Source: Planctomycetota bacterium (GTDB taxonomy: Bacteria > Planctomycetota > B15-G4 > JADJEK01). From it: a stretch of 64,000 nt of DNA. The stretch covers positions 160,001 to 224,000 of the forward strand of contig JBGAIQ010000004.1 in NCBI GenBank assembly GCA_044225365.1. Direction: 5' to 3'. The notes below the pieces were generated by a model. It was not told the DNA's origin and searched no databases. It was given only the letters and a program-made list of their open reading frames with translations. Positions within the stretch are counted from its first letter, which is position 1; each line of letters opens with the position of its first letter. Below are positions 55,398 to 61,653 of this stretch, in pieces. Both the position numbers and the translations under genes were made by a program.

Positions 55398-56711
55398 ATG
55401 TCGATTTCGATGCCCATCGTCACCGCCGCGGCGATCACTTCTCTCTTCGGAGCGACCCTCGACGCGCGCGCCCAAACGATCGTCGCAAAGGGTGACACGA
55501 CGATCGATCGAAAGCAGGAGCCCGGCGCGTCGCCCTTCGGCGACCTGATCGGCGAGCACACGCTGACGCCCACGAGCGGCGGTGAATCGCGATTGCGCTT
55601 CGTGCTCATGCGATCGAATCCATCGACGGTTCCCAGTGCCGGCGCCGGAGAGACCGATCCGCCGCAGGGCGTGAAGGCGGTCGATCGTTATCTCTTCGAG
55701 GTCCTGCGCAGTGTCGATCGCGATCGACTGCACGATCTCGTCGCGATCGACCAGCTCGTCACCCGCGTGAGCGAGGACACGAGGACGATCGAGCTCGAGC
55801 ATTCCATCGAGGTACAGGGACCGGAGGATTCGTTACGACGCGCCCTTTCGAAGCTGGACGCATTCGTCGCTGCGAACCGCACCCTCATCACGGTTTCGAT
55901 CACGGCGGCGAAGAAAGCCACTCCCGCGGCGAACGATACGGCGCTCGTTTCGATCGTCGACCAGGCTGCATGCGACGCGATCCGTTCGGCCATGAAGTCG
56001 GCGTCGCACGAGGTGCTCAGTGCCCCGACTCTCACGGTCTACGGCGGACAACGCGGCGAGATCTCGGCGTTGAACGACACTCCCTACATCGCCGATTTCA
56101 CCGTCACGGCCACGAAAGACGCACTCATCGCCGACCCCGTGATCAAAGTGCTCAAAGAAGGGATTCGCTTCAGCGTCACGCCGATCGTCGACGTCGATGG
56201 AGAGCACCTCCATCTCGCGATCGAGTCCTGGATCGGTCGCGTGCGCCGACCGATCCGGGAATTCCAGACGACGCTCGCGGCTGGGGCCGCGCAGGTCACA
56301 TTGCAATTGCCGGAAGCGCTCGAGACGCGGTGGAAGAGCGATTTCCTCGCAATGTCCCGCGACGACCACGCGGTGCACGTCGAGAAGATCCGTTTCGTCG
56401 AGTTCGACGACGAGAAGGGCGAGATCCCGGAGGAACTCGAGTTGCTGATCGAGGTCCGGCGCGCGACACCTCCTTCGAACGACGGAGGTCCCTTCAGCGG
56501 AATGGTGATCGGCGTGGACGCCTCGAACCTCCGCGTCTTCGTCACCTGTCGAGACTCGAGTGGGAAGACGACGACACTTCGAGCGAATCAGATCTCCATC
56601 TTCCGGGGAAACGACCCCGTGGGCGAATGCGTGGTTCTCGAGAATCTAGGCGGAGTGCTCGTGTGCAGGCTCGCGAAGGGAGAAGCCCGCGCGGGCGATT
56701 CCGCAAAGTGA
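55398..56711 (+). CDS. Secreted protein with a partial secretin-like domain
   Basis: Signal peptide ending ARA-Q; VLSAPTLTVYGGQRGEI...EGIRFSVTPIV resembles the type II/III secretin core. Confidence 0.65.
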   Translation: MSISMPIVTAAAITSLFGATLDARAQTIVAKGDTTIDRKQEPGASPFGDLIGEHTLTPTSGGESRLRFVLMRSNPSTVPSAGAGETDPPQGVKAVDRYLFEVLRSVDRDRLHDLVAIDQLVTRVSEDTRTIELEHSIEVQGPEDSLRRALSKLDAFVAANRTLITVSITAAKKATPAANDTALVSIVDQAACDAIRSAMKSASHEVLSAPTLTVYGGQRGEISALNDTPYIADFTVTATKDALIADPVIKVLKEGIRFSVTPIVDVDGEHLHLAIESWIGRVRRPIREFQTTLAAGAAQVTLQLPEALETRWKSDFLAMSRDDHAVHVEKIRFVEFDDEKGEIPEELELLIEVRRATPPSNDGGPFSGMVIGVDASNLRVFVTCRDSSGKTTTLRANQISIFRGNDPVGECVVLENLGGVLVCRLAKGEARAGDSAK

Positions 56712-56813
56712 ACATGCGGGCGGGCGCGGCGGCCCATTTCTCGTGATTTGGGAACCGAAGCGAGGAGTGATTTCGGGTAGGCTCTGGCCTTTTCCGCCTG
56801 TTGGAGCCTCTTT

Positions 56814-58469
56814 CTGTCTGCATCATCCGACTCGTCCGCGTTCGCCTCCCTCGGACTCTCCGCCGCGTCACTCGACGCGCTCGCGCGGGCGAACTACACG
56901 GCTCCAACCCCCATTCAGCAGAAGGCCATTCCGCTGGCTCTCGAGGGCCGTGACATCATTGGTTGCGCTGCAACCGGCACCGGGAAGACGGCGGCGTTCC
57001 TCCTCCCCATCATCGAGAAACTGACGGGAAAGCGCGGCCCGCGCGCTCTCGTCCTCGCCCCCACTCGCGAACTCGTGCAGCAGATCGCCGAGCACCTCGA
57101 ACGCTTCGGCGCATCGCGCGGAGTGCGCGGCGCCGAGATCATCGGCGGCGCGTCGATGGGCAATCAGGTCGCGCAACTTCGCCAACAGCGCGAAGTCATC
57201 ATCGCGACGCCGGGCCGCCTCCTCGATCACCTCGAACAACGCACCGCGCAGCTCGACCAGGTCGAGATCCTCGTCCTCGACGAGGCCGACCGCATGCTGG
57301 ACATGGGCTTCATGCCGCAGCTCAAGCGGATCATGCGCTACGTGCCCGAGCGTCGGCAGACGATGCTGTTCTCCGCCACGATGGCGGGGGAAGTCGCGGA
57401 ATTCGCGAAGCGCGCACTCCACGATCCGGCCCGCGTCGAGATCGAGCGCAGCGGGACGGTCGCCCGTAACGCCACGCAAACCGCTTTCGTGGTCAACGAA
57501 GCCGACAAGACCGCTCTCCTCCTCGCGCTGCTCTCGCAGGACGAAGAGACCACGCTCGTCTTCGCACGCACGCAGCGCCGCGCGGACAAGCTCGCGAAGA
57601 CGCTCGCTCGGCTCGGACATCGAGTCGCGCGGATCCACGGCGGACGCACGCAAGCTCAACGCGAGCACGCTCTCGATGGTTTCAAGTCGGGGCAGCATCG
57701 CGTGCTCGTCGCCACCGACATCGCGGCGCGCGGCATCGATGTGAGCGACATCGGTCACGTCGTGATGTTCGACATCTCGCGAGCGCCCGAAGACCACGTC
57801 CATCGCGTCGGACGAACGGCCCGCGCCGAGGCCGTGGGTCACGCGTCGACGTTCGTCGCGCACGAGGAACTGCGCGCGCTGAAGGACATCGAACGCTTCC
57901 TGCGTACTTCGATCACTCGCGCCGACCTGCCCGATCTCTCGACGTGGCGCGCCGAGATCGAGCGCGCGCGGTTCGCCGCCGAATCGCAGCATGCATCTCA
58001 TGCGCCGCGCGCACACTCCAACGCACCACGACGCGGACCGCCGCGCGAGAAGTCGCGCGGTTATGGAAAGTCGCACGGCAACCCGGGACATTCCGCAAAG
58101 CCGGGGCACGGCGGCAAGAAATTCGGAAGTGGACGCCGCGGATTCGCATTCATCGGCCGGTCGAGTTCGTCGCCCCGCCCGAGTTCCGCCCCACGCTCGA
58201 ATCATTTCGATTCGCCCGAACGCCGGTCCGACGCGCCCGTTCGCAACGACGAACGCGGACATTTCCGCAATGAACCGCGGCGCGAACACTTCGAGGATCG
58301 ACCGACAGGAAAAGGCGCGAATACCTTCAGTCGCGGTCCCTATGAAGGCCGACAAGACAACGTAGACCGCAGAGGTTCCGATTCCCGCCCCTCGGGTCAG
58401 AATGCTCCACGCGGCCGCTTCGACGCTCGCAAGAATCGTCCCTACCGTTCCCGAGGAGAGCGATCCTGA
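56814..58469 (+). CDS. DEAD-box RNA helicase (RhlE-like), probable CTG start
   Basis: Q motif FASLGL..YTAPTPIQ, ATGTGKT and PTREL lie upstream of the ORF-track start at 57075; also DEAD, SAT, ARGID, HRVGRTAR and an Arg/Gly-rich tail. In-frame TAG at 56778; GGAG (56803-56806), 7 nt, then CTG at 56814. Confidence 0.9.
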   Translation: MSASSDSSAFASLGLSAASLDALARANYTAPTPIQQKAIPLALEGRDIIGCAATGTGKTAAFLLPIIEKLTGKRGPRALVLAPTRELVQQIAEHLERFGASRGVRGAEIIGGASMGNQVAQLRQQREVIIATPGRLLDHLEQRTAQLDQVEILVLDEADRMLDMGFMPQLKRIMRYVPERRQTMLFSATMAGEVAEFAKRALHDPARVEIERSGTVARNATQTAFVVNEADKTALLLALLSQDEETTLVFARTQRRADKLAKTLARLGHRVARIHGGRTQAQREHALDGFKSGQHRVLVATDIAARGIDVSDIGHVVMFDISRAPEDHVHRVGRTARAEAVGHASTFVAHEELRALKDIERFLRTSITRADLPDLSTWRAEIERARFAAESQHASHAPRAHSNAPRRGPPREKSRGYGKSHGNPGHSAKPGHGGKKFGSGRRGFAFIGRSSSSPRPSSAPRSNHFDSPERRSDAPVRNDERGHFRNEPRREHFEDRPTGKGANTFSRGPYEGRQDNVDRRGSDSRPSGQNAPRGRFDARKNRPYRSRGERS

Positions 58470-59335
58470 ATCTTCAAGCCACACAACCCGATCGTGATCC
58501 GACGCGCCCCTGGACCTGGGGTTTCTTCGACTGGCTGCCGGGCGAAGGACGGACGCTCTTCTGGATCGTCCTGATCCACGTCCTCTCGATCGTTGGAATC
58601 GTCCTGTTCCCGCTTCCCAGTCTGAACGTCGGGCTCGCGGCCTTCGCGCTCGCCTTCCTCGGCGGGCTCGGAACGACCGTCGGTTATCACCGCGCACTCG
58701 CCCACAAGGCCGTCACGCTGAACCCGGTCGTACAGTTCTGCCTCACGTTCCTCGCGATGTTCAACGGCTCGGGCGCGCCCGCGACCTGGACGTCGAATCA
58801 TCGCAATCACCACATGAACGCGGAGACCGAGGCCGACGTCTCGAGCCCGCGCATCGGCGGTTTCTGGTGGGCGCATCTCCGCTGGCTCTGGCAGTCCTCG
58901 CAGAGCTCGCTCACGCGCTACGCACCCGATCTCGACACGCCGTACTGGCGCTTCTGGACCAAGGCGCAGCCCTTCGTCGTCGCTGCGTCGCTGTTCGTCG
59001 GTCTCCCCTTCGGCTGGCAGGCGTTCTTCTGGATGGGCGCGATTCGCCTCACCTTCTCGCTGCACGCGCAGTGCACCGTGAACTCGATTGCCCACATGAA
59101 GAAGGGCGTCGCTCCGGGCGAGGATTCGTCGCAGAACCTTCTCTGGCTCGGCTTCTTCCAGTGGTTCCAGGGTGAGAACTGGCACGGCAATCACCACGCC
59201 GAACCCAATTCCGCGCAGCTCGGCTGGAGCTGGCGTCAGCCCGACCTCGGCTGGGCCTTCATCTACGTGATGGAGAAGGTCGGCCTCGCGAGCCGAGTCC
59301 GCCGGCGCAAGGACGTGGCGCGAAAAGCGGCCTGA
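58466..59335 (+). CDS. Membrane fatty-acid desaturase (delta-9-like), probable CTG start
   Basis: His boxes HRALAH (upstream of the ORF-track ATG at 58757), HRNHH, HGNHH; N-terminal TM helices. GAGGAG (58453-58458), 7 nt, then CTG at 58466 overlapping the helicase TGA. Confidence 0.88.
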   Translation: MNLQATQPDRDPTRPWTWGFFDWLPGEGRTLFWIVLIHVLSIVGIVLFPLPSLNVGLAAFALAFLGGLGTTVGYHRALAHKAVTLNPVVQFCLTFLAMFNGSGAPATWTSNHRNHHMNAETEADVSSPRIGGFWWAHLRWLWQSSQSSLTRYAPDLDTPYWRFWTKAQPFVVAASLFVGLPFGWQAFFWMGAIRLTFSLHAQCTVNSIAHMKKGVAPGEDSSQNLLWLGFFQWFQGENWHGNHHAEPNSAQLGWSWRQPDLGWAFIYVMEKVGLASRVRRRKDVARKAA

Positions 59336-59358
59336 CCCCCCCCGAATCGATCGACTCG

Positions 59359-59398
59359 AAGAGCGGCCTTCACCTGCGGGTGCGGCCGCTCTTTCGTT
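59359..59398 (+). terminator. Terminator hairpin after the helicase-desaturase operon
   Basis: Stem AAGAGCGGCC / GGCCGCTCTT with inner CACC/GGTG pairing, followed by TCGTT. Confidence 0.6.
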
Positions 59399-59544
59399 GC
59401 ATCGCACGCTCGCTCGAGAATCCCGCGAGAAGCGTGGCGGGTTCCGAACTCGCTTTCCGACCCTTTCTCCTGAACCCGAATCGCGCGATCCCGATGCGGC
59501 ACGTCGCCGCCGAGGGATCTCGCACCTCGAACAGGAGAAACGTC

Positions 59545-61653
59545 ATGTCCCGCCTCCAGAGTCGCCTCGCGCTTTCCTTCGCCGCCTGCCTCCTCGGTGC
59601 CTCGCACGCGCTTGCGACCGACGACGACGCGAACGACGCCCAAACCGCCTGGGTCTGGTATCACGATCAGACACCTTCGCAGATCACGGCCCTCATCCAA
59701 CAGGGTTATCGCGTCACGAATATCGAAGTCGACTCCGCATCCCCCGCGCTGTTCACCGTCGCGATGGTGAAGAACTCCGGTTCGTACGCGAAGACCTTCT
59801 GGTGGTACTACGGACAGGACTCCGCGACGATCGCCACCGAGCTCGCCCAGAACAGCGCGCGCCTGATCGATCTCGAACCGTACAACCTGAACGGTCAGGT
59901 GCGTTTCGCCGCCGTCATGGTGAAGAACACCGGCGCCGACGCAAAGAACTGGTGGTGGGTCGCGAGCTCGAATCTGAACGATGTCTCGACGACACTGACG
60001 CAGAACGGCGCGCGTCTCACCAAGCTCGATGAAGTCACGATCGGCGCGAACACCTACTACGCCGCGATCATGATCCAGAACTCGGGCGCCGACGCGAAGA
60101 GTTGGTGGTGGTACCACGGCGTCGACGGCTCGTTCGTCGCGACGCAGCTCGGTGCGACCGGCGCCCGTCTGCTCGATCTCGCGCGGCGGTCGGATGGACT
60201 CTTCGACGTCGTCCTCGCGCAGAACGACGAAGGCTTCCATTGGTGGTGGTACTACGGCCTCGACGAGGCCGCGCTGAATGCGGAAATGGCCCAGACCGGC
60301 TCACGGGCCCTCTGCGTCCAGAAGTCGAATTCGTTCCTCGGTGCGACCTACTCCGCCGTGCTCATCAACGACTCGAACGCGCTGACCACGACGGTCGGCG
60401 ACATCTTGCGCACCGGCACCGATGGCGTTTCGGGCCTCTACCTCAAGGAGATCAACGGTCCCGTCCTCGCGAGCCTCGAGGAGCAATACGTCTTCGAGCC
60501 CGCGAGCACTTTGAAGACGCTCGTCCATGCCCATGCGATGAAGCAAGTCGCGCTCGGCACGGTCTCGCTGAACCAGCCGATCCTCGTCGACACGGGGCTC
60601 ACCGGTTCGTGTCCGAACGGCACGCAGCCCGTCATCGAGTCCCTGCAGGTCGTCCTCACCAAGATGATGCAGAACTCCGACAATGCCCGCACCAAAGCGG
60701 CCGTCGACTTCTTCGGGCAAGCGAACATCAACGCCACCGCGGTCGCGCTCGGCATGACCCACTCGCAGATCAACCATGTATTCGGATGCGGCGGTCCGAT
60801 TCCGAATCAGCTCACACTCGTCGACGGCGACGCGCTTCACGAGGCCGTCGCGAATGGATTCCTGGGCGCACAGAAGCAGACGTTCCACGACATCATGCTG
60901 TCGAGCGTCCCGGGATATGCGGGCGGCCTCCTCGGACAGGTGATCGATCAGGAAGCCGCGGCGATCGGCGTCAGCAACGCGATGAAGGCGCAGTTCATCA
61001 CGCTCGCCGAGATGGCGTACAAGGGCGGCAGCTACACGATCTTCCCGGGTCCGAAGGAATACCGATCGGTCCTCTCGTACGTCGATCTCCCCTTCCTCGC
61101 GCAGTTCTTCGGAAACACCGTGGTCACGCATCATCAGTACGTCACCGGGATCTTCGTCCACGCGGCTTCGAACGGCTTGACGGTCGACGGCGTCGTCAAT
61201 CACGCCGCATCGGAGCTGCTGCGCGATGAGATCCATGCGGCACTCCTCACCTGGAAGTCGAACTGCGTCGCGTTCAATGCGTCCTACGGTTCGGGCAAGG
61301 CGGGAACCAAGGGCGTGCCGACTCTCACGTCGAGCCAGCTCCCGAGCCTCGGCGCGACGTCGAGCATCACGCTCGGCAACGGCAAACCCGGAGCCGCACC
61401 GCTGCTCTTCGTCGGCTTGAACAGTTCGAACCAGAGCTTCGACGGCGGCAAGTTGCTGGTCCAGCCGCAACTCATCCTGACGCTCCCCGTGATTCCCCAG
61501 AATGGAACGCTCTCGATCGCGGGCACGCTGCCGGCGGATCCGACGCTCTGTGGCGTCACGATCTATCACCAGATGATGTTCGCCGACGCGGGCGCGTCCG
61601 GCCCGTATCACACGGCGCAGACCGCGGGTCTCGCGCGCACGCTCGGCAACTGA
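59545..61653 (+). CDS. Secreted serine hydrolase (class A beta-lactamase fold) with Trp-rich tandem repeats and C-terminal domain
   Basis: AGGAG SD, signal peptide; about 5 repeats of about 50 aa containing WWYYG-type motifs; SxxK (ASTLK), SDN, KGG. Confidence 0.85.
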   Translation: MSRLQSRLALSFAACLLGASHALATDDDANDAQTAWVWYHDQTPSQITALIQQGYRVTNIEVDSASPALFTVAMVKNSGSYAKTFWWYYGQDSATIATELAQNSARLIDLEPYNLNGQVRFAAVMVKNTGADAKNWWWVASSNLNDVSTTLTQNGARLTKLDEVTIGANTYYAAIMIQNSGADAKSWWWYHGVDGSFVATQLGATGARLLDLARRSDGLFDVVLAQNDEGFHWWWYYGLDEAALNAEMAQTGSRALCVQKSNSFLGATYSAVLINDSNALTTTVGDILRTGTDGVSGLYLKEINGPVLASLEEQYVFEPASTLKTLVHAHAMKQVALGTVSLNQPILVDTGLTGSCPNGTQPVIESLQVVLTKMMQNSDNARTKAAVDFFGQANINATAVALGMTHSQINHVFGCGGPIPNQLTLVDGDALHEAVANGFLGAQKQTFHDIMLSSVPGYAGGLLGQVIDQEAAAIGVSNAMKAQFITLAEMAYKGGSYTIFPGPKEYRSVLSYVDLPFLAQFFGNTVVTHHQYVTGIFVHAASNGLTVDGVVNHAASELLRDEIHAALLTWKSNCVAFNASYGSGKAGTKGVPTLTSSQLPSLGATSSITLGNGKPGAAPLLFVGLNSSNQSFDGGKLLVQPQLILTLPVIPQNGTLSIAGTLPADPTLCGVTIYHQMMFADAGASGPYHTAQTAGLARTLGN

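What the first reader, a model, noticed from the sequence alone, without database searches (positions are those of the whole stretch)
56778..59398. Helicase-desaturase operon in which both genes appear to initiate at CUG: candidate start-codon-based translational control of cold adaptation
Seen: two adjacent, overlapping genes ending in one terminator hairpin. Each lacks any in-frame ATG/GTG/TTG upstream of essential motifs, and each has a CTG exactly 7 nt after an SD (GGAG; GAGGAG). The other genes called in this window have usable canonical starts. Established: DEAD-box helicases and membrane desaturases are classic cold-induced functions; IF3 discriminates against non-canonical starts, and infC uses AUU for autoregulation. 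Inference: the operon may couple RNA remodelling and membrane fluidity to initiation fidelity (IF3 level or ribosome maturation state), possibly as a feedback loop through a ribosome-assembly helicase.
Basis: partly seen in the sequence, partly recalled or inferred. Interest (0 to 1): 0.85.

Follow-up and report, generated by a model that had tools for sequence, protein, structure and literature searches.

The report
Helicase-desaturase operon starting at CUG codons
Two neighbouring genes, an RNA helicase and a membrane fatty-acid desaturase, can only be translated from the very rare start codon CUG, and related bacteria keep the same arrangement, so it is a real, inherited feature that probably keeps both proteins scarce and tied to each other.

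Summary
Helicase ORF 56781..58469 has no in-frame ATG/GTG/TTG before 57075, which lies after motifs Q, I and Ia. Desaturase ORF 58346..59335 has none before 58757, after His box 1. Each has a CTG 7 nt after GGAG or GAGGAG.

It is not a sequencing error. All 5 helicase orthologues found in the 11 other species genomes of the family (3 genera with the window's genome) also lack a canonical start. They keep GGAG, 6-7 nt, CTG, with an in-frame stop 1-11 codons upstream.

The desaturase CTG overlaps the helicase TGA (CTGA) in 4 genomes. The homologous codon is TTG in the genus where the genes are unlinked.

In my home-made ORF survey of 4037 ORFs, these two genes are the two most extreme. I found no genome-wide sign of CTG starts.

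Best reading: real SD-directed CUG initiation for the helicase, and termination-coupled CUG initiation for the desaturase, both limiting expression. The proposed role as a sensor of cold, IF3 or ribosome maturation is plausible from E. coli literature but untested. infC here starts with ATG, and relatives have a canonical initiator tRNA.

A second desaturase clade in soil metagenomes has a conserved AUU start.

The parts
56778..56780 (+). In-frame TAG that closes the helicase frame upstream
   Evidence: The orthologues have an in-frame stop 1, 3 or 11 codons before their CTG.
56787..56813 (+). Helicase leader: U-rich tract (TTTTCC 56790-56795) and SD GGAG 56803-56806
   Evidence: The T-rich tract and GGAG are the conserved columns of the six-genome leader alignment. 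Folding predicts that the GGAG is paired in all six, but z-scores of -2.0 to +0.8 are not significant.
56814..56816 (+). CTG, proposed start codon of the helicase
   Evidence: It is the only near-cognate codon between the upstream stop and the Q-motif Phe that is shared by all six genomes. NCBIfam RhlE and CshA profile positions 1-2 align to residues 9-10 counted from this codon.
56814..58469 (+). DEAD-box RNA helicase CDS, 551 aa, with a basic Arg/Gly/Ser-rich C-terminal tail
   Evidence: Pfam DEAD 6.7e-55 and Helicase_C 1.5e-30. Motifs PTPIQ 56904-56918, AATGTGKT 56967-56990 and DEAD 57279-57290 are read.
57075..57077 (+). First in-frame canonical start codon (GTG) of the helicase frame, too late to be the start
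   Evidence: A protein started here would lack motifs Q, I and Ia.
58453..58458 (+). SD GAGGAG for the desaturase, inside the helicase 3' end
   Evidence: The corresponding sequence is GAGAGG in the three genus-g6 genomes.
58466..58469 (+). CTGA junction: desaturase CTG overlapping the helicase TGA
   Evidence: The same junction is present in G005, G010 and G011. The C is the 4-fold-degenerate third base of the last helicase codon (TCC here, GCC in g6), so the helicase coding sequence does not constrain it.
58466..59335 (+). SCD-type (delta-9-like) membrane fatty-acid desaturase CDS, 289 aa
   Evidence: PDB SCD1 4ymk E 2e-12, residues 28-276. NCBIfam DesA_fam_desat 8.4e-23, below its cut-off. 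His boxes HRALAH 58688-58705, HRNHH 58799-58813 and HGNHH 59183-59197 are read. No Pfam hit. The nearest Atlas clusters carry PF00487.
58757..58759 (+). First in-frame canonical start codon (ATG) of the desaturase frame, too late to be the start
   Evidence: A protein started here would lack the first two predicted membrane helices and His box 1.
59348..59404 (+). Terminator-like hairpin closing the two-gene unit
   Evidence: -34 kcal/mol, z -4.74. One search lists its inner stem.

Best explanation
Both genes are intact, functional and translated from CUG.

The helicase is initiated de novo. The 30S subunit is placed by the conserved GGAG, 6-7 nt upstream, probably helped by the conserved U-rich tract, and initiator tRNA pairs with CUG through a first-position mismatch.

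The desaturase is initiated at the CUG of a CUGA stop/start overlap. Initiation is either by ribosomes that have just terminated on the helicase UGA, held in place by the GAGGAG 7 nt upstream, or de novo at the same site. Its output therefore follows helicase translation.

CUG is a very poor initiator in the one organism where it has been measured. The arrangement should therefore keep both proteins low and make their synthesis unusually dependent on whatever sets initiation stringency.

What is shown and what is inferred:
- Shown by sequence comparison: which codon must be the start, the SD, the overlap and their inheritance.
- Inferred: use of initiator tRNA, re-initiation, and low or regulated output.
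For: (1) No alternative start exists.
- Searches show this for the window.
- In G008 the in-frame TGA is one codon before the CTG. In G003 a TAG is three codons before it.

(2) Conservation.
- Helicase orthologues (66-71% identity) were found in 6 of the 12 species genomes of the family, in 3 of 7 genera. All 6 of 6 have GGAG, 6-7 nt, CTG and no canonical start before the Q-motif Phe.

(3) The stretch after the CTG is translated.
- In the eight codons AFASLGLS, the differences among the three genera are all synonymous: 4 codons differ and none changes the residue (DNA).
- Motifs Q, I and Ia are invariant in alignment A1.

(4) More distant helicase relatives carry GTG, TTG or ATG at the corresponding place (L037-L042, L044, L045 at about 47-53% identity; L074 and L075). 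The CTG is therefore derived and has then been kept.

(5) Desaturase.
- Of 15 orthologous loci, 2 (G000 and G010) have no canonical start at all before the conserved PWTW.
- The CTGA junction is shared by G000, G005, G010 and G011.
- The homologous codon is TTG in G008 and G003, where the desaturase is not next to the helicase.

(6) Specificity within the genome.
- Among 4037 ORFs, these two rank first and second for distance from coding onset to the first canonical start (83 and 79 codons). Only 6 ORFs exceed 50 codons, and two of those are 5'-truncated fragments.

(7) The machinery looks ordinary.
- The 16S 3' end carries CCUCC.
- The initiator tRNA in G003, G005 and G011 contains the canonical GGGCUCAUAACCC.

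(8) Independent parallel: another clade of this desaturase family has a conserved GGAG-N5-ATT start.
Against: - No expression or protein data exist. Nothing shows that ribosomes start at either CTG.
- CUG gave 0.86% of AUG output in E. coli (passage of PMC11497404 citing other work), so it is fair to ask whether enough protein would be made.
- Conservation of the C alone is weak evidence. At 4-fold sites of the same gene, a C in the window genome is C in all six genomes at 27 of 82 sites.
- For the desaturase, G005 has an ATG 8 codons after the CTG and G011 a GTG 10 codons after it. In the window, ATC 58463 is also in frame.
- CTG at NTGA junctions across the genome is not enriched over the GC3 background: CTG 129, GTG 188, ATG 327, TTG 64.
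- The six genomes are kin: three genera, not six independent cases.
- The ORF survey rests on a home-made codon model.
Confidence: 0.72

Rival explanations
1. The CUG starts act as a sensor. When initiation fidelity drops (low IF3 per ribosome, or immature 30S subunits entering translation, as happens in the cold), CUG initiation rises. More helicase and, through coupling, more desaturase are then made. If the helicase aids ribosome assembly or RNA unfolding, this closes a feedback loop. This adds a layer to the best explanation rather than replacing it.
For: - Weak starts recur in both gene families: CTG here, ATT in a second desaturase clade, and a DEAD-box paralogue without a canonical start in genus g22.
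- The helicase and this desaturase are linked in 4 genomes of the family, in G022 in the reverse order, and in 3 of 80 metagenome loci.
- E. coli rbfA, ksgA and lepA mutants misinitiate more at CUG, and the defects worsen at 25 C (passages of PMC6868393).
- From general knowledge, not from a call: DEAD-box helicases and desaturases are classic cold-induced genes.
Against: - Nothing in the locus or its neighbourhood is specific to cold.
- The helicase is not an equivalog of CsdA, SrmB, DbpA, RhlE or CshA.
- infC has ATG.
- AUU and GUG mRNAs competed worse at low temperature in E. coli extracts (abstract of PMC5499595).
- The predicted pairing of the SD is not better than in shuffled sequence.
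- No known RNA element lies in the leader.
Confidence: 0.2
2. Artefact or decay: the C at one or both positions is an assembly error, or the genes are recent pseudogenes that have lost their start codons.
For: - The genome is a 103-contig metagenome-assembled genome.
- Among the four runs laid, only X1 gave contigs that cover both sites without a difference, and X1 may be the source sample.
Against: - The same CTG is present in five other assemblies for the helicase and three others for the desaturase.
- Both ORFs are intact.
- Mean column identity is 83% for the helicase and 76% for the desaturase, with all catalytic motifs invariant.
Confidence: 0.03
3. The proteins are made by another route. 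Candidates are N-terminally truncated products from the internal GTG 57075 and ATG 58757, a helicase-desaturase fusion by -1 frameshifting, or desaturase initiation at ATC 58463.
For: - The desaturase frame is open for 40 codons before the CTG and lies in the -1 frame relative to the helicase.
- ATC 58463 lies 4 nt after GAGGAG.
Against: - Truncated products would lack the P-loop, or His box 1 and the first membrane helices.
- There is no X_XXY_YYZ heptamer or homopolymer run of 5 or more in 58346-58466.
- The codon before the CTG is CGC in genus g6, so the ATC is not conserved.
Confidence: 0.05

Closest known systems
infC (IF3) AUU start codon and its autoregulation in E. coli
   Same: A conserved near-cognate start codon with an SD, whose use depends on initiation-factor proofreading. 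It is the textbook case of a start codon serving as a regulatory device (named in passages of PMC3592434).
   Different: The codon here is CUG, not AUU. The genes are not initiation factors, and no feedback is shown. infC of this very genome has ATG.
Rare bacterial CUG start codons
   Same: Initiator tRNA pairing with CUG through a first-position mismatch. CUG is reported as 0.024% of bacterial start codons and 0.86% of AUG output in E. coli (passage of PMC11497404). Switches to CUG numbered 2 of 61,358 ancestral AUG starts, 1 of 5,080 GUG starts and 1 of 2,468 UUG starts (passage of PMC5622118).
   Different: Here there are two in one operon, one of them kept across three genera and with no canonical alternative. 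My literature searches turned up no conserved CUG start described for a helicase or a desaturase.
Translational coupling at ATGA-type 4-nt overlaps (termination-reinitiation)
   Same: The stop of the upstream gene overlaps the start of the downstream gene by 4 nt, with an SD inside the upstream gene. In E. coli reporters about half of downstream translation at such junctions came from re-initiation (passages of PMC3592434; listing and abstract of PMC6728339). This genome has 327 ATGA-type junctions by my count.
   Different: The overlapped start is CUG. The papers I read did not test re-initiation on a near-cognate codon.
DEAD-box RNA helicases RhlE, CshA and CsdA/DeaD
   Same: DEAD and Helicase_C core with all motifs, plus a basic low-complexity C-terminal tail.
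   Different: It scores below the curated cut-off of every named equivalog, so its cellular role is unknown. It has a CUG start and is physically linked to a desaturase.
SCD-type acyl-CoA/acyl-lipid delta-9 desaturases (mouse SCD1, PDB 4ymk; bacterial DesA family)
   Same: Four-helix membrane core, the three His boxes and the NSxAH motif. It aligns to SCD1 over residues 28-276.
   Different: It is short (289 aa). It misses Pfam PF00487 in hmmscan even at E 10 and reaches only 81 of 400 bits on NCBIfam DesA_fam_desat. Regiospecificity and substrate are unknown.

Membership tests
DEAD-box RNA helicase (superfamily 2) | Motifs Q (F..PTPIQ), I (AxTGxGKT), Ia (PTRELA), II (DEAD), III (SAT), VI (HRxGRxxR) | tested here: met
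   FASLG...PTPIQ, AATGTGKT, PTRELV, DEAD, SAT and HRVGRTAR all appear in the translation. Pfam DEAD 6.7e-55 and Helicase_C 1.5e-30.
Named helicase equivalogs (CshA, RhlE, RhlE1/2, DbpA, SrmB, CsdA, RhlB) | Score at or above the NCBIfam curated cut-off | tested here: not met
   The best is CshA at 407.4 bits against 646. RhlE scores 373.7 against 743, and CsdA 314.8 against 890.
Membrane diiron fatty-acid desaturase, SCD/delta-9 type | His boxes HxxxxH, HxxHH, HxxHH and the N-x3-H motif, with membrane helices before box 1 | tested here: met
   HRALAH, HRNHH, NSIAH and HGNHH. SCD1 4ymk E 2e-12 over residues 28-276. These residues are invariant in alignment A2.
Membrane diiron fatty-acid desaturase, SCD/delta-9 type | Match to Pfam FA_desaturase PF00487 or NCBIfam DesA_fam_desat at the curated cut-off | tested here: not met
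   No Pfam family at E up to 10. NCBIfam 81.1 bits against 400. The Atlas neighbours (scores 0.96-0.97) do carry PF00487.
Genes with a conserved near-cognate start codon (infC-like) | No canonical start is possible, and the near-cognate codon with its SD is conserved in orthologues | tested here: met
   Helicase: 6 of 6 orthologous genomes. Desaturase: CTG in 4 genomes, of which 2 have no alternative.
Genes with a conserved near-cognate start codon (infC-like) | Output responds to IF3 or initiation fidelity; feedback by the gene product | not testable with these tools
   This needs reporters or ribosome profiling. The only indirect data are from E. coli literature.
Translationally coupled gene pair (termination-reinitiation) | 4-nt stop/start overlap on one strand, with an SD 5-10 nt upstream | tested here: met
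   CTGA at 58466-58469 and GAGGAG at 58453-58458. The same junction is in three g6 genomes.
Translationally coupled gene pair (termination-reinitiation) | Downstream translation depends on upstream translation | not testable with these tools
   The only indirect hint: where the pair is unlinked (genus g4), the homologous start codon is TTG.
Cold-shock regulon | Induction at low temperature, or a cold-responsive leader such as a cspA-type thermosensor | tested here: inconclusive
   No Rfam family in 56300-59600 apart from one chance-level snoRNA hit. The leader folds are not better than shuffles. Expression could not be measured.

The most novel reading that the evidence does not exclude
A lineage of bacteria has fixed CUG start codons on a DEAD-box helicase and, through a CUGA overlap, on a membrane desaturase. 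The operon would then read out the stringency of start-codon selection (IF3 occupancy and 30S maturation state). It would raise RNA-remodelling and membrane-fluidising capacity exactly when ribosome assembly falters, as in the cold. The independent AUU start in another clade of the same desaturase family would make start-codon weakness a recurrent regulatory solution for this enzyme.
Probability: 0.18. Interest if true: 0.85.

Novelty: new variant of a known kind. Interest (0 to 1): 0.6.

Why it matters
CUG is almost never a bacterial start codon, and most gene callers do not consider it. Pipelines limited to ATG, GTG and TTG would truncate genes like these or flag them as broken.

Here comparative data leave CUG as the only possible start of an essential-looking enzyme core, and the state has lasted across three genera. 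That gives a natural, testable system for several questions:
- how much protein a CUG start can deliver in a bacterium other than E. coli;
- whether re-initiation at a stop/start overlap tolerates a near-cognate codon;
- whether weak start codons are used to gate stress functions.

The recurrence of weak starts in one desaturase family (CTG, TTG, ATT) suggests selection to keep this membrane enzyme scarce or conditional.

Tried and rejected
Reads and contigs.
- All four runs laid were Logan contigs, not raw reads.
- X1 covers 56600-57168 and 57710-59450 with no differences, but it may be the sample the genome came from.
- X3 and X4 carry a related strain. X3 has 40 differences over 56603-57208, and X4 has 23 over 56603-56869.
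- Ninety-four difference rows were not shown, so I cannot say what X3 and X4 read at 56814.
- No listed piece of X3 or X4 spans 58466.
- X20, an RNA library, gave only two short pieces inside the helicase 3' half. I draw no conclusion on expression, habitat or transcript ends from any of this.

Known RNA elements and promoters.
- The Rfam scan at E up to 1 gave one chance-level snoRNA hit.
- No sigma-70-like promoter was found.

Leader structure.
- The alignment fold gave -5.4 kcal/mol with little covariation.
- The SD is predicted to be paired in all six leaders, but with different partners and z-scores of -2.0 to +0.8. I rejected this as evidence for a thermosensor.

General relaxation of start-codon choice.
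- CTG codons in upstream zones are preceded by an SD in 7.9% of cases, against 8.2% for all codons and 33% for first ATGs.
- CTGA junctions are not above background.
- The initiator tRNA is canonical in relatives. It is not assembled in G000 itself, so that genome could not be checked.

Conservation of the C as a selection test: the 4-fold-site control gave 27 of 82, so the test is not significant on its own.

Frameshift fusion: no slippery site.

Wider searches.
It added only two GTG-started relatives labelled Anaeromyxobacteraceae. I could not place the organism taxonomically.
- A possible third CTG-start gene (C32) has no Pfam family and no orthologue in the family, so it could not be tested.

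Literature.
- Searches found no description of a CUG-started helicase or desaturase. One search (desaturase + start codon + AUU + IF3) returned 0 papers.
- I saw passages of PMC11497404, PMC6868393, PMC12548453, PMC3592434 and PMC5622118.
- I saw the outline and abstract of PMC5499595.
- I saw only a reference-list passage of PMC7949028.
- I opened no supplementary files. Start-codon tables in such supplements might list similar cases.

Tools not used: structure prediction, complex prediction and the large protein searches. No claim here needed them.
Full report
WHAT IS IN THE SEQUENCE

On the + strand, frame 0 is open from 56781 (after TAG 56778-56780) to TGA 58467-58469. It encodes a DEAD-box helicase. 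A second frame is open from 58346 to TGA 59333-59335 and encodes a membrane desaturase.

The first in-frame ATG, GTG or TTG of the helicase frame is GTG 57075. Counted from CTG 56814 this is residue 88, behind the Q motif (PTPIQ), motif I (AATGTGKT) and motif Ia (PTRELV).

The first canonical codon of the desaturase frame is ATG 58757, residue 98 from CTG 58466. It lies behind GYHRALAHK, the first histidine box.

GGAG 56803-56806 lies 7 nt before CTG 56814. GAGGAG 58453-58458 lies 7 nt before CTG 58466. That CTG shares its last two bases with the helicase stop, giving CTGA.

A strong hairpin at 59348-59404 follows the desaturase (-34 kcal/mol, z -4.74).

It missed only that ATC 58463 is also in frame.

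WHAT THE GENES ARE

The helicase matches Pfam DEAD (6.7e-55) and Helicase_C (1.5e-30). In NCBIfam it is closest to CshA, RhlE and relatives but falls below every curated cut-off. It is a DEAD-box helicase of unassigned role, with a long basic, Arg/Gly/Ser-rich tail. The RhlE and CshA profiles begin at residues 9-10 counted from CTG 56814, which is where an N-terminus is expected.

The second protein has no Pfam hit even at E 10. It does align to mouse stearoyl-CoA desaturase 1 over residues 28-276 (E 2e-12). It has the HxxxxH, HxxHH, NSxAH and HxxHH motifs. Its nearest Atlas clusters are acyl-CoA desaturases that carry PF00487.

IS IT AN ERROR?

No. The window lies in a 6.5-Mb, 103-contig genome. 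Its family holds 12 species genomes in the collection. Helicase orthologues at 66-71% identity occur in 6 of the 12, in 3 of 7 genera.

In all six the arrangement is the same:
- There is an in-frame stop shortly upstream: 11 codons in the window genome and genus g6, 3 codons in G003, and 1 codon in G008.
- GGAG follows, then 6-7 nt, then CTG.
- There is no ATG, GTG or TTG before the conserved Phe of the Q motif.

In G008 the reading is TGA GTT CTG. Nothing but the CTG can serve there.

The eight codons AFASLGLS that follow differ among the genera at four codons, always synonymously. Motifs Q, I and Ia are invariant. So this stretch is translated.

More distant relatives have GTG, TTG or ATG at the corresponding place. 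These are the family f3 and f4 genomes at about 47-53% identity and two MAGs labelled Anaeromyxobacteraceae. The CTG is a derived state that has since been retained.

THE DESATURASE START

I examined 15 orthologous loci.
- The window genome and G010 have no canonical start anywhere between the upstream stop and the conserved PWTW.
- G005 and G011 have an ATG or a GTG 8 and 10 codons after the CTG, at positions that are not conserved.
- All four of these genomes (genera g1 and g6) share the helicase-desaturase order and the CTGA junction. The coordinates worked out agree to the base.

The C of the CTG is the third base of a 4-fold-degenerate helicase codon (TCC here, GCC in g6). The helicase protein therefore does not hold it in place.

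In genus g4 the two genes lie on different contigs. There the desaturase is preceded by about 270 nt of non-coding sequence that still aligns with the junction region, and the homologous codon is TTG. This fits the idea that a CUG suffices when the start is fed by terminating ribosomes, while a free-standing start carries a better codon. With one such contrast, this is a hint and not a test.

IS IT SPECIAL WITHIN THE GENOME?

I trained a codon log-odds model on 1522 long ORFs and chose 4094 non-overlapping coding ORFs, of which 4037 are closed on the left. For each I compared the estimated coding onset with the first canonical start.
- The first canonical start lies more than 20 codons after the onset in 25 ORFs, more than 30 in 12, more than 50 in 6, and more than 80 in 1.
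- The desaturase (83 codons) and the helicase (79 codons) rank first and second.
- Of the other four above 50, two are 5'-truncated fragments, an AhpC/TSA gene and an epimerase gene.
- A third, on contig C32, is a possible further CTG start that I could not test.
- The fourth, on contig C35, has no Pfam family and was not followed up.
- In the window itself, 36 of the 38 ORFs have offsets of 4 or fewer.

CTG codons in upstream zones are no more often preceded by an SD (7.9%) than any codon (8.2%). First ATGs reach 33%. CTG at NTGA junctions (129) is no more frequent than the GC-rich third position predicts, against GTG 188, ATG 327 and TTG 64.

The 16S rRNA ends in CCUCC. The initiator tRNA of G003, G005 and G011 has the three G-C pairs; it is not assembled in the window genome. 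infC starts with ATG.

So the lineage shows no general loosening of start-codon choice. The peculiarity belongs to this operon.

A CAUTION ON CONSERVATION

Keeping C at the first base in six genomes sounds strong, but the genomes are kin and third positions are GC-biased. At 4-fold sites of the same gene, a C in the window genome is C in all six at 27 of 82 sites.

The argument therefore does not rest on that base. It rests on three other points:
- no alternative start exists;
- the SD is conserved at a fixed distance while the spacer sequence changes;
- the substitutions downstream of the CTG are synonymous.

HOW IT MOST LIKELY WORKS

Shown: the identity of the only usable start codons, their SDs, the overlap and their inheritance.

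Inferred:
- Initiator tRNA reads CUG with a first-position mismatch.
- The helicase is initiated de novo with help from the SD and a conserved U-rich tract.
- The desaturase is initiated largely by ribosomes terminating at the overlapping UGA. In E. coli reporters about half of translation at such junctions is re-initiation (passages of PMC3592434).

In E. coli, CUG is reported to give 0.86% of AUG output and to make up 0.024% of bacterial starts (passage of PMC11497404). Evolutionary switches to CUG are of the order of 1 in 10,000 or fewer (passage of PMC5622118).

The expected consequence is low output of both proteins and a desaturase level tied to helicase translation.

THE REGULATORY IDEA

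In its favour:
- E. coli strains with 30S assembly defects initiate more at CUG, and the defects worsen at 25 C (passages of PMC6868393).
- The helicase-desaturase link recurs. It is seen in four genomes of the family, in G022 in reverse order with canonical starts, and in 3 of 80 metagenome loci.
- Weak starts recur, as described in the next section.

Against it:
- Nothing specific to cold is present.
- The helicase has no assigned role.
- infC has ATG.
- AUU and GUG mRNAs competed worse in the cold in E. coli extracts (abstract of PMC5499595).
- There is no known RNA element or significant structure in the leader.

I put this reading at about one in five.

A SECOND CLADE WITH A WEAK START

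I recovered 80 metagenome loci (73 distinct) that encode relatives of the desaturase at 52-65% identity. Eight have no canonical start before PWTW.

Seven of these eight (L186, L193, L199, L200, L206, L223, L229) share a conserved ATT ACC GAA/AAA. In six of them an in-frame stop lies four codons upstream of the ATT. In six (all but L200) an SD-like GGAG sits 5 nt before the ATT.

L184 and L233 share the ATT motif but also have upstream canonical codons; L184 has the GGAG-N5 as well, while L233 has no SD by my criterion.

Several other loci have SD-preceded TTG starts.

This independent AUU case makes it more likely that weak initiation is selected in this enzyme family.

VERDICT

It is inherited and specific to this operon.

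It is a new variant of a known kind of feature, the near-cognate start codon. What is new is two CUG starts in one operon, one of them conserved across genera and the other at a CUGA overlap.

The function of the weak starts, whether simple attenuation or sensing, is open and directly testable.

Noticed in passing
L186, L193, L199, L200, L206, L223, L229 (also L184, L233): the region just upstream of the desaturase match, which starts near locus position 2601 in most of them: A second clade of the same desaturase family, from metagenome contigs, has a conserved ATT as the only possible start, preceded by GGAG-N5 in most of the loci. In six loci an in-frame stop lies four codons upstream. An inverted repeat, TTTGTCAA ... 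TTGACAAA, lies in front and looks like an operator or promoter.
   Followed up: partly
G000 contig C32:25510 (L234:311-313): A possible third CTG start in this genome. GGGAG is followed by 8 nt and then CTG, ahead of a hydrophobic N-terminus. The first canonical start lies 70 codons later. The protein has no Pfam family, and I found no orthologue in the 11 other genomes of the family.
   Followed up: partly
L059 (G040) and L054 (G030), genus g22: A DEAD-box paralogue with AGGAA followed by 5-7 nt and then ATT or ATC. L059 has no canonical start before the Q motif. L054 has an in-frame TTG upstream that is out of frame in L059.
   Followed up: partly
L005 (G008) and L006 (G003), upstream of the desaturase: In genus g4 the desaturase is not next to the helicase. 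Its upstream non-coding region still aligns with the helicase-desaturase junction of the other genera, and the homologous start codon is TTG.
   Followed up: yes
L008 / L040 (G022:C6): Here the gene order is reversed: desaturase first, then a DEAD-box helicase 38 nt downstream on the same strand. Both have canonical starts.
   Followed up: partly
G000 contigs C11:64-139, C45:34512-34587, C18:31478-31554: The assembly has no initiator tRNA. It has two identical tRNA(CAU) genes whose stems look like tRNA-Ile2, and one elongator tRNA-Met.
   Followed up: partly
G000 C26:6043-6543 (L061), minus strand: infC starts with ATG. The nearest GGAG is 14 nt upstream. There is no AUU-type start, unlike E. 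coli.
   Followed up: yes
G000 C14:47657-48028 and C70:160980-160570: Two ORFs that match only the C-terminal parts of their Pfam families: AhpC/TSA from profile position 43 of 124, and an epimerase/dehydratase from position 216 of 332. They look like truncated or frameshifted genes.
   Followed up: partly
window 56787-56813 and the same region of L032-L036: A conserved T-rich tract (CGTTTTCC, CGTTTCGTTTC or CCTTTTCC) lies 8-20 nt before the GGAG of the helicase leader. The GGAG is predicted to be base-paired in all six leaders, though not more stably than in shuffled sequence.
   Followed up: partly
window 59546-61653: The next gene downstream has a signal-peptide-like N-terminus and repeated Trp-rich segments. 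I did not examine it.
   Followed up: no
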